IMG/VR virus record: IMGVR_UViG_3300033407_000061
Span: 1 to 38,623 of that record
DNA: 38,623 bases
Strand: one strand, 5' to 3'
Source: a virus
Taxonomy: Duplodnaviria; Caudoviricetes
Shown here: positions 29,332-38,623 of the stretch, piece by piece
How positions within the stretch are numbered: position 1 is the stretch's first letter
How the letters are laid out: each line of letters begins with the position of its first letter
Translations under genes and position numbers: made by a program
The notes under the pieces: model-generated
What the model was told of the DNA's origin: nothing
What the model saw: only the letters and a program-made list of their open reading frames with translations
Databases searched by the model: none

Positions 29332-29790
29332 ATGACAGCTAAAAACAAAGCAGGAAAGCCAGCAGCCAAGTCTGGAAATAGCACTGGGAACCCACCAGCA
29401 ACAGGCAGACCATACAAAGTATTAGATGCAGAATTATTTGAAAGGCTCTGTTTTAGTATCTGCACATACTCAGAAATAGAAGCCATGATGAAAGCGGATA
29501 TGTCTACACTTCAAGAATGGTGTAAGCGTACATGGGGAAAAACTTTTTCTGAGAAATATAAAGAATTTTCTGAAGGTGGCAAGGCTTCACTAAGAAGGAC
29601 GCAGCTGAGACTAGCACAAAAGAATGCCGCGATGGCCATCTGGTGTGGTAAGCAGTACCTGGGGCAGCACGACAACGACAAGGGCCAAGGCGACGCAATT
29701 AGCCAAGCAGCACAAGCACTTATAGGAGCAGCAAACTTGTTGTCACAAGGAGATGTAGTTGAAGAACCCCCTCAGCCAGAAGCAGATTGA
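29332..29790 (+). CDS. terS: Terminase small subunit
   Basis: TGRP motif, HTH, GKASLRRTQ...AMAIWCGKQYLGQ; overlaps the TerL start. Confidence 0.8.
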   Translation: MTAKNKAGKPAAKSGNSTGNPPATGRPYKVLDAELFERLCFSICTYSEIEAMMKADMSTLQEWCKRTWGKTFSEKYKEFSEGGKASLRRTQLRLAQKNAAMAIWCGKQYLGQHDNDKGQGDAISQAAQALIGAANLLSQGDVVEEPPQPEAD

Positions 29791-32029
29791 ATCCTATAGA
29801 GCTCCTAATGCCAGACTAAATATGTGGGAGGGTAGCGTCCGTTCAGGAAAGACTTTTATTTCCATTATTCGTTTCATGAAGGCTATACAGGACGGTCCTC
29901 CTGGAATAGCAATGATAATAGGTGTTTCAAGGGACTCTATTCAAAGGAACATATTAACGGAGCTATGTGCGCTTGTCGGTGCGCCTTGTCCTACGCCTAA
30001 GGCTGGACAAATAACACTCCTGGGTAGAACGATCTTCCTTGTTGGTGCAAACGATGAGCGAGCACAACGAAGAATACAAGGCTCTACGCTAGCTCTGGCC
30101 TACGTTGATGAGATGACCCTCATTCCTCAGGGATTCTTTAAGATGCTCCTGTCCCGTCTCTCGGTCAATGGTGCGATGCTCTTTGGAACCACAAACCCCG
30201 ATAGCCCATTTCACTGGCTGAAGACAGACTTCCTCTCGAAGATAGACCTAGACATGCAAGTACATCACTTCCAGCTAGAAGATAATCCATCCCTAAGTGA
30301 AGCGTATGTCAACAACCTAAAAAAAGAATATACAGGCCTTTGGTATAAGAGGTACATCAACGGAGAGTGGGTACTAGCGGAAGGAACGGTATACGACTTC
30401 TTTGATGAGCAAAACCACGTCATTGATCTGCCCCCAGGTCAAGCAGAGTATTACATCATTGGGGTAGACTACGGAACCGCAAACCCTACAACTTTTAGTT
30501 TAATAGGGTATAGTAAGAAACTATGGCCTAATATTTGGCTAGAAAGAGAGTACTACTTTGATAGTAAGAAGAAAGGCCATCAAAAGACGGACACCGATTA
30601 CGTTGAAGACCTAATCAAGTTCATTGGTGAAAAAGTAGTACGTTGTATTTACGTAGATCCTTCCGCAGCCTCCTTCAAATTGGAGATGATGCGACAGGGG
30701 CTAGGAGGTGTGATCGATGCGGATAACGATGTCATCAACGGTATACGGTTCCAGAGTAAGCTCCTCTCGAACGGTACGTACAAGATTTGTCGCTGCTGCT
30801 CTAATGCTATACGAGAATACCAGACGTACAGATGGGATGAGAAAGCCTCACTCAAAGGGGAAGACAAGCCAATTAAAGAGCATGACCACTGCTTTGTAGC
30901 CGGTACTCCGGTTATAACGGAATACGGAGAAATTCCGATTGAGAGAATTGAAGTAGGTAATAAGGTTCTCACCCGTTCGGGTTGGAATCAGGTAGAAGAG
31001 ACATTCAAGCACGAAGCGGAAGTGTCAGAGTTTGAAGTTCTGGGACAGAAAATAACATGTACACCGTCACACAAATTTCTCACTGGCCAAGGTTGGAAAC
31101 AGATTAGCAATATGATAAACTCCGATATTCTATTTACAGAAGTTGGGGAATTACCATGGTTGAAGACATCGAATTTGAGGGAAGAAAATACCGGCGTTAT
31201 CCAGAAGCTAAAAGACGTTCTCAAAGGGTGTATTTTAAATGTGGATACGGAAGTAGATTGCTTCATAGAGACATTTGGGAGCACTACAATGGAAAAATTC
31301 CCAAAGGAAGCCATATTCATCACAAGGACAACGATCCCCTCAACAATGACATTAGCAATCTCGAATGTCTATCACGTTCTAAACACCTTTCCTATCATGC
31401 GAACAGCCTTACGGAAAGCCAAAAAGCAGATAGAGATGAAAGATGGTTATCGTATCAAAAACGAGCCGCAGAATGGCACGGAAGCAAAGAAGGGAGGAAA
31501 TGGCACTCTGATCACGCAAATGAAATGTGGAGTAAAAGAGAGCCTATCACACATTCCTGCGAAAAATGTGGAAAGGCTTACCAGTCCATCAAATCAGGAC
31601 TCACTCGATTTTGTTCAAATAACTGTAAGTCACAAGCAAGACGAGATAGCAACGTTGATCGTGAGAAAAGATATTGTTCTTTCTGTGGACTGGAGTTCGA
31701 AGCAGATAAGTACAGTCGAACAAGATTTTGCTCAAAGTCCTGTTCTTGCAAATCCTCTTGGGAAAAGAGAAATTTACAATATACATGTGCAGAATGAACA
31801 CGAATACTTTGTACATAAGTGCCTAACACACAATTGCTTGGACTCGCAGAGGTACGGGCTCTATACGCACTTTCGCGGCGTGCTTAACAACGAGTCTGCA
31901 AGCGCAGACATGGATAAGATCTATGCAGATGTCGTTGGATTAAAGACAGACCTACCCGATTTTTTCCAAGTTAATCAGTACAATCAGCATCCTGTTCCAC
32001 AGGGAGCCCCATCGGGATTTTACGGGTGA
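29759..32029 (+). CDS. terL: Terminase large subunit, PBSX family, containing an intein
   Basis: Walker A GSVRSGKT, Walker B YVDE, TTNP, GVDYG, DPSA; DH/CLDSQRY nuclease motif split by the intein. Confidence 0.95.
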   Translation: MKNPLSQKQIESYRAPNARLNMWEGSVRSGKTFISIIRFMKAIQDGPPGIAMIIGVSRDSIQRNILTELCALVGAPCPTPKAGQITLLGRTIFLVGANDERAQRRIQGSTLALAYVDEMTLIPQGFFKMLLSRLSVNGAMLFGTTNPDSPFHWLKTDFLSKIDLDMQVHHFQLEDNPSLSEAYVNNLKKEYTGLWYKRYINGEWVLAEGTVYDFFDEQNHVIDLPPGQAEYYIIGVDYGTANPTTFSLIGYSKKLWPNIWLEREYYFDSKKKGHQKTDTDYVEDLIKFIGEKVVRCIYVDPSAASFKLEMMRQGLGGVIDADNDVINGIRFQSKLLSNGTYKICRCCSNAIREYQTYRWDEKASLKGEDKPIKEHDHCFVAGTPVITEYGEIPIERIEVGNKVLTRSGWNQVEETFKHEAEVSEFEVLGQKITCTPSHKFLTGQGWKQISNMINSDILFTEVGELPWLKTSNLREENTGVIQKLKDVLKGCILNVDTEVDCFIETFGSTTMEKFPKEAIFITRTTIPSTMTLAISNVYHVLNTFPIMRTALRKAKKQIEMKDGYRIKNEPQNGTEAKKGGNGTLITQMKCGVKESLSHIPAKNVERLTSPSNQDSLDFVQITVSHKQDEIATLIVRKDIVLSVDWSSKQISTVEQDFAQSPVLANPLGKREIYNIHVQNEHEYFVHKCLTHNCLDSQRYGLYTHFRGVLNNESASADMDKIYADVVGLKTDLPDFFQVNQYNQHPVPQGAPSGFYG
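30890..31834 (+). other. Intein (315 aa; TerL residues 378-692)
   Basis: Block A CFVAGTPV, block B CTPSHKF, blocks F/G IYNIHVQNEHEYF...THN followed by C; spliced TerL is 441 aa. Confidence 0.92.
31156..31797 (+). CDS. HNH homing endonuclease with C-terminal Zn-finger repeats, overprinted inside the intein in a different frame
   Basis: LHRDIW...IHHKDNDPLNNDISNLECL...H, plus CxxC...FCSxxC twice; offset +2 from the TerL frame; GGGGA upstream of the ATG. Confidence 0.88.
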   Translation: MVEDIEFEGRKYRRYPEAKRRSQRVYFKCGYGSRLLHRDIWEHYNGKIPKGSHIHHKDNDPLNNDISNLECLSRSKHLSYHANSLTESQKADRDERWLSYQKRAAEWHGSKEGRKWHSDHANEMWSKREPITHSCEKCGKAYQSIKSGLTRFCSNNCKSQARRDSNVDREKRYCSFCGLEFEADKYSRTRFCSKSCSCKSSWEKRNLQYTCAE

Positions 32030-32072: not shown

Positions 32073-32552
32073 TCACGGTCCCTTAGTTCGTATGAACGGT
32101 GCCTGAAAGCTGCCCTGCCGGATCTCAAGCCCAAGGTCAATGACCCACAGCACAAGGCTGTAGGCTTGTATCTGACACATGAGTCGATACATTCAGAGAC
32201 GTCTCATAGTTGACGCTCCTACCTTGCGGTGGCCAATTGACTGTGGCCTGCTCTACAGACGCTATACGCAGTAGAGAGATGCCCACTACTGTGGGAATAC
32301 CCGAATTATCGGGAACAACTCGTCTTAGGCTTTCCGCTTTCCCATATTGGGATGCCAGCCTCGGAGTTGAAGAGAAATTACAGCACGATTCATCCTTTAG
32401 CACAATGCTAAAGGTTTTCTCGTGTCAATTTCATAATTGGCGACACGGTTTAGATCGATCGGCGGCACCACAGTCTCCTGGCCGTACACCTCCAACAAAA
32501 GGTCCCATGTCACGCATTCAATTTTTTCGATCTGCTCTTTAGCAAGACCCAT
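32073..32552 (-). pseudogene. Truncated ImmA/IrrE-like metallopeptidase N-terminus interrupted by MITE-A
   Basis: Precise removal of 32136-32432 gives MGLAKEQIEK...VVPPIDLNRVANY-LGLEIRQGSF...; no HExxH remains. Confidence 0.55.
32136..32432 (-). mobile_element. Full MITE-A (297 bp)
   Basis: On the minus strand TTAT, then GAAATTGACACGAG-AAAA-hairpin ... CAAG-hairpin-TTGAC; no target duplication. Confidence 0.9.
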
Positions 32553-32608: not shown

Positions 32609-32671
32609 ACGAATGTAAGAAATATTTTCAGCCAAAAACTTTTTCGGAGAATTATAAAGAATTTTCTGATT

Positions 32672-32769
32672 GCCACCGCAAGGTAGGAGCGTCAACTATG
32701 AGACGTCTCTGAATGTATCGACTCATGTGTCAGATACAAGCCTACAGCCTTGTGCTGTGGGCCATTGAC
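32672..32769 (+). mobile_element. MITE-A right-end fragment (98 bp)
   Basis: Matches 18-115 except one base; ends CATTGAC. Confidence 0.85.
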
Positions 32770-32856: not shown

Positions 32857-33153
32857 GTCAATGACCCACAGCACAAGGCTGTAGGCTTGTATCTGACACA
32901 TGAGTCGATACATTCAGAGACGTCTCATAGTTGACGCTCCTACCTTGCGGTGGCCAATTGACTGTGGCCTGCTCTACAGACGCTATACGCAGTAGAGAGA
33001 TGCCCACTACTGTGGGAATACCCGAATTATCGGGAACAACTCGTCTTAGGCTTTCCGCTTTCCCATATTGGGATGCCAGCCTCGGAGTTGAAGAGAAATT
33101 ACAGCACGATTCATCCTTTAGCACAAGGCTAAAGGTTTTCTCGTGTCAATTTC
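32857..33153 (-). mobile_element. Full MITE-A (297 bp)
   Basis: Near-identical to 32136-32432 (left-end loop CACAAGGC vs CACAATGC); TTAT target; interrupts a small minus-strand ORF starting at 33224. Confidence 0.9.
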
Positions 33154-38497: not shown

Positions 38498-38623
38498 GAA
38501 ATTGACACGAGAAAACCTTTAGCATTGTGCTAAAGGATGAATCGTGCTGTAATTTCTCTTCAACTCCGAGGCTGGCATCCCAATATGGGAAAGCGGAAAG
38601 CCTAAGACGAGTTGTTCCCGATA
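38498..38623 (+). mobile_element. Left half of MITE-A, cut by the window end
   Basis: TTGT, then GAAATTGACACGAGAAAACC...; with 1-115 it covers 241 of 297 nt. Confidence 0.85.

What the first reader, a model, noticed from the sequence alone, without database searches (positions are those of the whole stretch)
30890..31834. Terminase intein with a complete HNH endonuclease overprinted in a different reading frame
Seen: the TerL frame stays open for 945 nt with intact splicing blocks (C1, TxxH, HN/C). Its central ~215 aa contain no endonuclease motif and read like a shadow frame. The same DNA, shifted +2, encodes a 213-aa HNH plus Zn-finger protein with its own ATG and stop, so 642 nt are dual-coded with no stop in either frame. 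Established: intein homing endonucleases are normally in-frame domains, and inteins target conserved motifs (here the DH..D..RY nuclease motif). Inference: a free-standing HNH gene invaded a mini-intein and is translated separately. The intein would splice out the junk translation while the HNH supplies homing, making a two-frame composite selfish element.
Basis: partly seen in the sequence, partly recalled or inferred. Interest (0 to 1): 0.85.

Follow-up and report, generated by a model that had tools for sequence, protein, structure and literature searches.

The report
Terminase intein hiding out-of-frame HNH gene
A phage DNA-packaging gene carries a protein insert (an intein) that likely splices itself out, and the same DNA, read two bases out of step, encodes an intact nuclease that likely spreads the insert; the layout is real and common in related phages, and layouts of this kind are already in print for other nucleases.

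Summary
Confirmed. terL (29759-32029) holds a 315-aa intein with intact splicing residues. A 213-aa HNH/zinc-finger gene (31156-31797) lies inside it in the +2 frame.

It is not an artefact. Of 117 non-redundant loci with this nuclease, 76 have it inside an unbroken terL intein (75 in +2). Outside such inteins, that frame has stops in 28 of 29. Close pairs show purifying selection only in the HNH frame. An 81%-identical terL lacks the intein at exactly this site. Three pairs carry near-identical inteins in diverged terL genes, as homing would give. Many relatives have a promoter-like site inside the intein coding DNA; the window's own is weak. Splicing, expression and cleavage are untested.

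[quoted passage not shown] This scan also found the layout in at least 8 earlier findings on other genomes. What I did not find in print is this family. One I-HmuI-like nuclease occurs at the terL nuclease motif overprinted, in split inteins on either strand, in intron-like inserts, and free-standing downstream. The direction of origin is unresolved.

The parts
29759..30889 (+). terL N-extein (377 aa; ATPase and most of the RNase H-like nuclease), ending in ...EHDH
   Evidence: Pfam Terminase_6N, TIGR01547 above cut-off; 81% and 77% identical to intein-free L068 and L069
30890..31135 (+). N-terminal splicing region of the intein (C1, T58, H61), about 82 aa
   Evidence: pLDDT 96-98 for residues 1-80; best fold match gp41-1 intein; C1 and H61 in 72 of 72 aligned relatives, T58 in 70
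31116..31131 (+). Weak -10-like hexamers (31116-31121 and 31126-31131) overlapping intein codons 76-81; candidate internal promoter for the HNH (inferred)
   Evidence: Family-wide enrichment. The window's own best score is 8, under the cut of 9, and one search found no consensus promoter
31145..31149 (+). Shine-Dalgarno-like GGGGA, 6 nt before the HNH ATG
   Evidence: Sequence; duplex -5.5 kcal/mol against a background median of -1.5
31156..31797 (+). HNH endonuclease gene in +2 frame: HNH core (H55, H56, N64, N68, H77, H81), long helices, two C4 zinc ribbons (C135/138/153/157; C174/177/192/196)
   Evidence: Pfam HNH_3; PHROG 15471 E 5e-36; profile hit to I-HmuI 1u3e E 4.5e-4; model pLDDT 96; conserved columns
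31136..31750 (+). Intein-frame reading of the same DNA: a stop-free filler loop with no function of its own detected
   Evidence: Mostly pLDDT 39-62, one helix at 73; identity to the window 22% in contiguous relatives against 20-22% in relatives where this frame is not translated
31751..31834 (+). C-terminal splicing region (blocks F and G, ending H-N); the HNH stop falls 13 codons before its end
   Evidence: pLDDT 92-98
31835..32029 (+). terL C-extein (64 aa) beginning C-L-D-S-Q-R-Y
   Evidence: L068 reads ...EHDHCLDSQRY without an insert

Best explanation
This is a terminase intein whose nuclease is a separate gene written in the +2 frame of the same DNA; the intein likely splices itself out of TerL, and the HNH is likely made from its own start and likely drives homing into intein-free terL genes. 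Shown: both frames are open, splicing and catalytic residues are intact, an empty allele exists, and selection acts on the HNH frame. Inferred step 1: ribosomes on the terL message read 756 codons, including about 200 codons of filler; class 1 splicing removes 315 aa and rebuilds the H-x-x-D metal-binding motif of the packaging nuclease. Inferred step 2: an internal promoter overlapping the intein's own codons gives a short message from which the HNH is translated (SD-led here, leaderless in many relatives). Inferred step 3: the I-HmuI-like enzyme nicks or cuts an intein-free terL near the site, and repair copies the whole 945 nt. Why +2: stops there arise only from Leu, Ile, Val or Met codons of the HNH, and this protein has half the usual share of them, so only about five codon choices must be right.
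For: Family: 76 of 117 non-redundant loci are contiguous (75 in +2, 1 in +1); the shadow frame has stops in 28 of 29 non-contiguous loci. Recoding null P 0.002; L/I/V/M 10.8% against 21.3%. dN/dS in the HNH frame 0.02-0.28 in the 9 informative contiguous close pairs, with changes mostly at HNH codon position 3; host-frame identity equals the untranslated controls. Empty allele L068. Near-identical inteins in exteins with pS 0.15-0.27 in 3 pairs. Median identity across 57 loci: extein 20%, splicing domain 36%, HNH 41%. Promoter score >=9 in 31 of 66 against 7.4% of 376 controls. GAT in 36 of 43 Asp codons against 18.5 expected; start codon 6 nt after the hexamer in 17 of 42. Cultured phages TJE1, Highwayman and phiCDHM19 carry it in their annotated terL.
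Against: No expression, splicing or cleavage data. The window's own promoter match is weak. No relative of the window's element is closer than about 52%, so the dN/dS and homing evidence comes from relatives, not this copy. Intein profile hits are below curated cut-offs. The I-HmuI match is modest (E 4.5e-4 by profile; Foldseek E 0.17). HNH and splicing-domain identities correlate only weakly (rho 0.36; HNH with extein 0.28). In two of the three homing pairs one member is broken, possibly by sequencing error.
Confidence: 0.78

Rival explanations
1. The intein splices, but the HNH of this copy is silent or no longer homes; it is a recent relic.
For: Weak promoter match; no close relative to measure selection on this copy.
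Against: All conserved catalytic and zinc residues present; SD-like site and ATG at the family position; relatives that lost the HNH core exist (L064-L066), so decay does happen, yet this copy is whole.
Confidence: 0.09
2. The HNH is kept as a helper of DNA packaging (a terminase-associated HNH) rather than as a homing enzyme.
For: All 21 loci that lacked a same-strand intein hit still lie in or beside terminase genes. PMC4422536 raises this idea for brucellaphages.
Against: The two closest terL relatives have no ORF of 100 aa or more between terL and portal and no HNH hit in the stretches held. Identical inteins in diverged terL genes point to lateral spread. Intron-like and split-intein settings are typical of homing enzymes (established knowledge).
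Confidence: 0.06
3. The HNH is reached by a -1 ribosomal frameshift from the terL frame, giving a TerL-intein-HNH fusion.
For: +2 equals -1, and the HNH frame is open for 16 codons before the ATG.
Against: A slippery heptamer in only 11 of 75 loci, none in the window; an ATG or GTG 22-44 codons before the core in 66 of 76; promoter and leaderless spacing.
Confidence: 0.05
4. Assembly indels hide an ordinary in-frame HNH intein, or the insert is an RNA intron.
For: Only contigs were laid; two relatives do look like group I introns at the same motif.
Against: The same offset in 75 loci, including cultured phages; intact protein-splicing motifs and HINT fold; no Rfam match in the window.
Confidence: 0.02

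Closest known systems
Actinobacteriophage inteins with an endonuclease VII-like nuclease 'in reading frame 3' (Gosselin, Arsenault, Gogarten; bioRxiv 10.1101/2025.01.02.630785; abstract, passages and sections 8 and 15 read)
   Same: Same-strand nuclease ORF nested in a contiguous intein, in frame 3 (+2); the paper proposes invasion by a free-standing gene and continued homing.
   Different: The nuclease here is Pfam HNH_3, I-HmuI-like, with two C-terminal zinc ribbons; no endonuclease VII family hit. Their host gene and site are in a figure and supplements I did not see.
Brucellaphage Tb terL intein with out-of-frame HNH (PMC4422536, passages read; NC_019446.1)
   Same: An HNH gene nested out of frame in a contiguous terL intein.
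   Different: Site in the ATPase domain, not the nuclease motif; offset +1; zinc fingers first and HNH last (Pfam HNH); only a 38-column core aligns.
Fractured genes with split inteins (PMC2677866, passages read)
   Same: A nuclease gene between intein halves, its 3' end overlapping the C-terminal half; 11 sense and 6 antisense relatives of this HNH fit this layout (one of the 11, L062, may be a frameshifted contiguous copy).
   Different: The window's intein is unbroken; the published nucleases are GIY-YIG and Vsr-like.
ShiLan methylase insertion with hidden HNH (PMC11855218, abstract and Discussion read)
   Same: Out-of-frame HNH under an open host frame; leaderless initiation proposed.
   Different: No splicing domain there; non-essential methylase host.
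HNH homing endonuclease PDB 1u3e (I-HmuI; its intron origin and nicking activity are recalled)
   Same: HNH core aligns over 71 profile positions; top Foldseek row.
   Different: C-terminal zinc ribbons resembling FCS/MYM fingers (weak hits); not a member by any strong score.

Membership tests
Class 1 intein | Cys1, block B T-x-x-H, terminal His-Asn, Cys/Ser/Thr at +1 | tested here: met
   C1 and H61 in 72 of 72 aligned relatives
Class 1 intein | HINT fold from both ends | tested here: met
   Model pLDDT 92-98 at both ends; 11 Foldseek matches at E<=0.001, all intein or intein-like
Class 1 intein | In-frame insert absent from homologues at the same residue | tested here: met
   L068
Class 1 intein | Protein splicing | not testable with these tools
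   Needs expression
HNH homing endonuclease | HNH motif with general-base His and metal ligands | tested here: met
   HNH_3 above cut-off; H55 invariant and H56, N64, N68, H77, H81 in >=90% of 98; aligned to 1u3e (residue roles recalled)
HNH homing endonuclease | Lateral spread into cognate empty alleles | tested here: inconclusive
   Three pairs of relatives fit; none involves the window copy
HNH homing endonuclease | Cleavage of the intein-free site | not testable with these tools
   Needs an assay
Non-canonical inteins with out-of-frame nuclease (Gosselin 2025), as a layout | Nuclease ORF nested in a contiguous intein, same strand, frame 3 | tested here: met
Gosselin 2025 endonuclease VII-like subgroup | Endonuclease VII-like nuclease | tested here: not met
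   Only HNH_3 at E<=0.01; their sequences were not compared directly
Brucellaphage terL intein-HNH | ATPase-domain site, +1 offset, HNH at the C-terminus | tested here: not met
Fractured gene (split intein) | Stop after the N-intein and a separate C-intein gene | tested here: not met
   Window frame is open; met in relatives
Group I intron with nuclease ORF | Ribozyme core flanking the ORF | tested here: not met
   No Rfam match in the window; Rfam also missed the two intron-like relatives, so this test is weak alone

The most novel reading that the evidence does not exclude
One HNH family that targets the terminase nuclease motif has been caught in every stage between a free gene and an intein passenger: free-standing just downstream of terL, in group I-like introns, in split inteins on either strand, and overprinted in unbroken inteins. 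The overprinted state is the dominant, stable form, not a rare intermediate. In it the intein's own conserved codons double as the nuclease's promoter, often for a leaderless message, so the nuclease is controlled apart from the terminase.
Probability: 0.45. Interest if true: 0.68.

Novelty: new variant of a known kind. Interest (0 to 1): 0.48.

Why it matters
It gives a large natural series for an old question: how inteins and homing nucleases join. The 2025 preprint calls such unbroken integrations extremely rare. Here they are 76 of 117 loci for one nuclease family, and the codon arithmetic explains why +2 is easy. Annotation misses the gene: TJE1, Highwayman and phiCDHM19 list only terL over it, so inteins called 'degenerate' may be active. 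Cultured phages make expression, splicing and homing directly testable. The layout itself would not surprise a specialist who knows the 2015 and 2025 papers.

Tried and rejected
Searching viral contigs with the intein-frame protein found 0 relatives among 3 candidate stretches, as expected for a shadow frame. No RNA holder was listed; this says nothing on expression. No intein-free joint was seen in the four runs laid. RBS-hiding hairpin: the window's SD pairs with an upstream arm, but z is -0.84, and only 26 of 43 relatives gain access in the short message; not supported as a family rule. Frameshift signal: 11 of 75. A single-sequence PDB search of the HNH found nothing; Foldseek had no hit at E<=0.001. 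SPP1 G2P did not appear in the PDB search with L068, so the H400/D403 match rests on motif spacing. Direction of origin: the tree is a quick, unrooted one with 18 of 103 branches well supported; not resolved, and its 'free' label predates my correction. My first class 'no intein' (21 loci) was wrong for 9 of them; corrected. Rfam did not confirm the two intron-like relatives. Two exact patterns from the 300-nt repeat found nothing in viral contigs. Paper searches for this family; none described it, but the library lacks most subscription journals.

Full report
Context. The window is a whole virus record of 38,623 bases, rated complete, with capsid, RecT/YqaJ, replication and P22-like portal genes. 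Its host was not determined. The four runs that hold the stretch are soil metagenomes.

Observation. All coordinates hold. terL is open for 756 aa, with an intein at 30890-31834 and a 213-aa HNH_3 gene at 31156-31797 in +2. Synonymous recoding gives a mean of 4.7 stops in the intein frame and none in 0.2% of 100,000 trials; 0 of 393 segments of ordinary genes have an open second frame. A 26.6x contig spans the locus without gaps, and another study's contigs cover 31090-31600 without gaps.

The intein. A model built on 55 sequences is confident at both ends and poor in the middle. Its best fold match is gp41-1 intein. L068, 81% identical over the N-extein, reads EHDH-CLDSQRY with no insert; L069 (77%) has no Cys there. 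In SPP1 G2P, His400 and Asp403 bind the metal and are needed for activity (PMC2685612, passages). The intein sits between the His and Asp of the same H-x-x-D spacing; this mapping is by motif, since G2P was not a hit. Unspliced TerL would therefore likely lack nuclease activity (inference).

The nuclease. H55 and seven cysteines are invariant in 98 aligned sequences; H56, N64, N68, H77 and H81 are kept in at least 90%. The profile's best PDB hit is 1u3e (E 4.5e-4). The model has pLDDT 96, but Foldseek gives only weak rows.

The family. Searches with the HNH returned 67 viral, 80 metagenome (best 80 of 103) and 6 genome loci, plus 6 phage records I fetched. After dropping the window's own record, 158 loci plus the window had a hit; these reduce to 117 at 95% identity: 76 contiguous inteins (75 in +2 including the window, 1 in +1), 11 split, 9 partial and 21 first called intein-free. 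I then corrected those 21. Six are split terL inteins with the HNH on the opposite strand. Eleven are free-standing just downstream of an intact terL. Two look like group I introns in the same motif (shared core and a resumed terL frame; R and S motifs recalled; Rfam gave no match). One lies before terS. One is an intein that lost the HNH core. Contiguous inteins use at least three adjacent registers in the motif.

Which frame is selected. The shadow frame has stops in 28 of 29 non-contiguous loci long enough to count (range 0-16). Openness in the contiguous class is part of its definition; the evidence is its frequency and fixed offset. Of 21 pairs examined, 9 contiguous close pairs gave dN/dS of 0.02-0.28 in the HNH frame. 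The host frame gave 1.35-2.11 in seven of them, 0.89 in a four-change pair, and was undefined in one; non-contiguous controls gave 1.28-1.70. Two further pairs were saturated, and the window's own pairs gave 0.36-0.41 near saturation. All 74 contiguous relatives are closer to the window in the HNH frame (mean 44%) than in the host frame (22%), and 22% matches the 20% and 22% of split and other controls. Stops in that frame need a Leu, Ile, Val or Met codon in the HNH, and these make up 10.8% of it against 21.3% in window genes.

Expression. An ATG or GTG lies at the expected place in 66 of 76 contiguous loci. A promoter score of 9 or more precedes it in 31 of 66, against 7.4% of 376 control windows taken further downstream; phiCDHM19 scores 12 of 12. 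The -10-like hexamer overlaps the intein's Asp-x-Leu/Ile codons. 43 of 72 loci have that Asp, 36 of them as GAT against 18.5 expected, which the protein cannot explain. The start follows 6 nt later in 17 of 42; the short-spacing group has a median SD energy of 0.2, while 17 of 19 long leaders have an SD. The window has the long form, with GGGGA at 31145-31149, but its promoter match is weak. The promoter idea was prompted in part by an earlier scan note.

Homing. L100/L102, L051/L053 and phiCDHM19/phiCD119 have 0-1 differences in the HNH but extein pS of 0.15-0.27. In the last two pairs one member is broken, possibly by sequencing error. Across 57 loci the extein is less conserved (20%) than the splicing domain (36%) or HNH (41%); correlations between the parts are weak. 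A quick tree needs 14 state changes, but well-supported branches force only 2-3 per group, so the order of events is open.

Comparison. The 2025 preprint describes an endonuclease VII-like gene in frame 3 of inteins and proposes the same origin. PMC4422536 states that an out-of-frame, intein-encoded HNH is in the terL of all annotated brucellaphages; Tb differs in site, offset and architecture. The preprint's supplements were not seen and may bear on overlap with its elements. Five paper searches did not show this family. Eight earlier scan findings report the layout on other genomes; a look-up with this protein's sequence returned none.

Verdict. Real, well supported by comparison, untested at the bench. 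It works like the published out-of-frame inteins and is a distinct, large family of that kind. Interest 0.48.

Noticed in passing
window 32131-32430, 32857-33151, 32672-32769 (inverted, partial), 1-115 and 38500-38623 (minus strand): A 300-nt repeat between terL and portal, also at both record ends. It folds strongly (z -5.2), has no Rfam match, and is multi-copy with diverged versions in soil runs. Not found in the other fetched loci or by two exact patterns. It may be a structured RNA or small mobile element, and may have disturbed the assembly here.
   Followed up: partly
window 32634-32669: A 36-nt near copy (94%) of 29538-29573 from the gene upstream of terL, lying in the terL-portal spacer.
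   Followed up: no
window about 1184-1918: A probable group I intron with a LAGLIDADG ORF (1254-1832) near the start of the major capsid gene, which seems to begin at ATG 1146 (read by eye; no Rfam match).
   Followed up: partly
window 31450 and 31452: Two substitutions in contigs of two other studies (depth under 5): S99P in the HNH, R188L in the intein frame, no stop in either.
   Followed up: yes
L020, L117, L122, L126, L140, L155: Split terL inteins with this HNH on the antisense strand between the halves.
   Followed up: partly
L033:2690-3620 and L075:2245-3150 (Exiguobacterium phage vB_EauM-23): Group I-like introns carrying this HNH in the same terL motif; the GenBank record annotates a truncated terL and no intron.
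   Followed up: partly
L100, L101, L107: HNHs 92-99% alike sit in inteins inserted two codons apart, with swapped N-terminal splicing regions; mosaic exchange.
   Followed up: partly
L064, L065, L066: terL inteins that keep only the zinc-ribbon part of the hidden ORF; likely decay toward mini-inteins.
   Followed up: no
L060, L061: The same HNH family in the +1 frame of a contiguous intein, the one exception among 76.
   Followed up: no
L013, L030, L050: terL genes with a second intein upstream, LAGLIDADG-bearing in L030 and L050.
   Followed up: no
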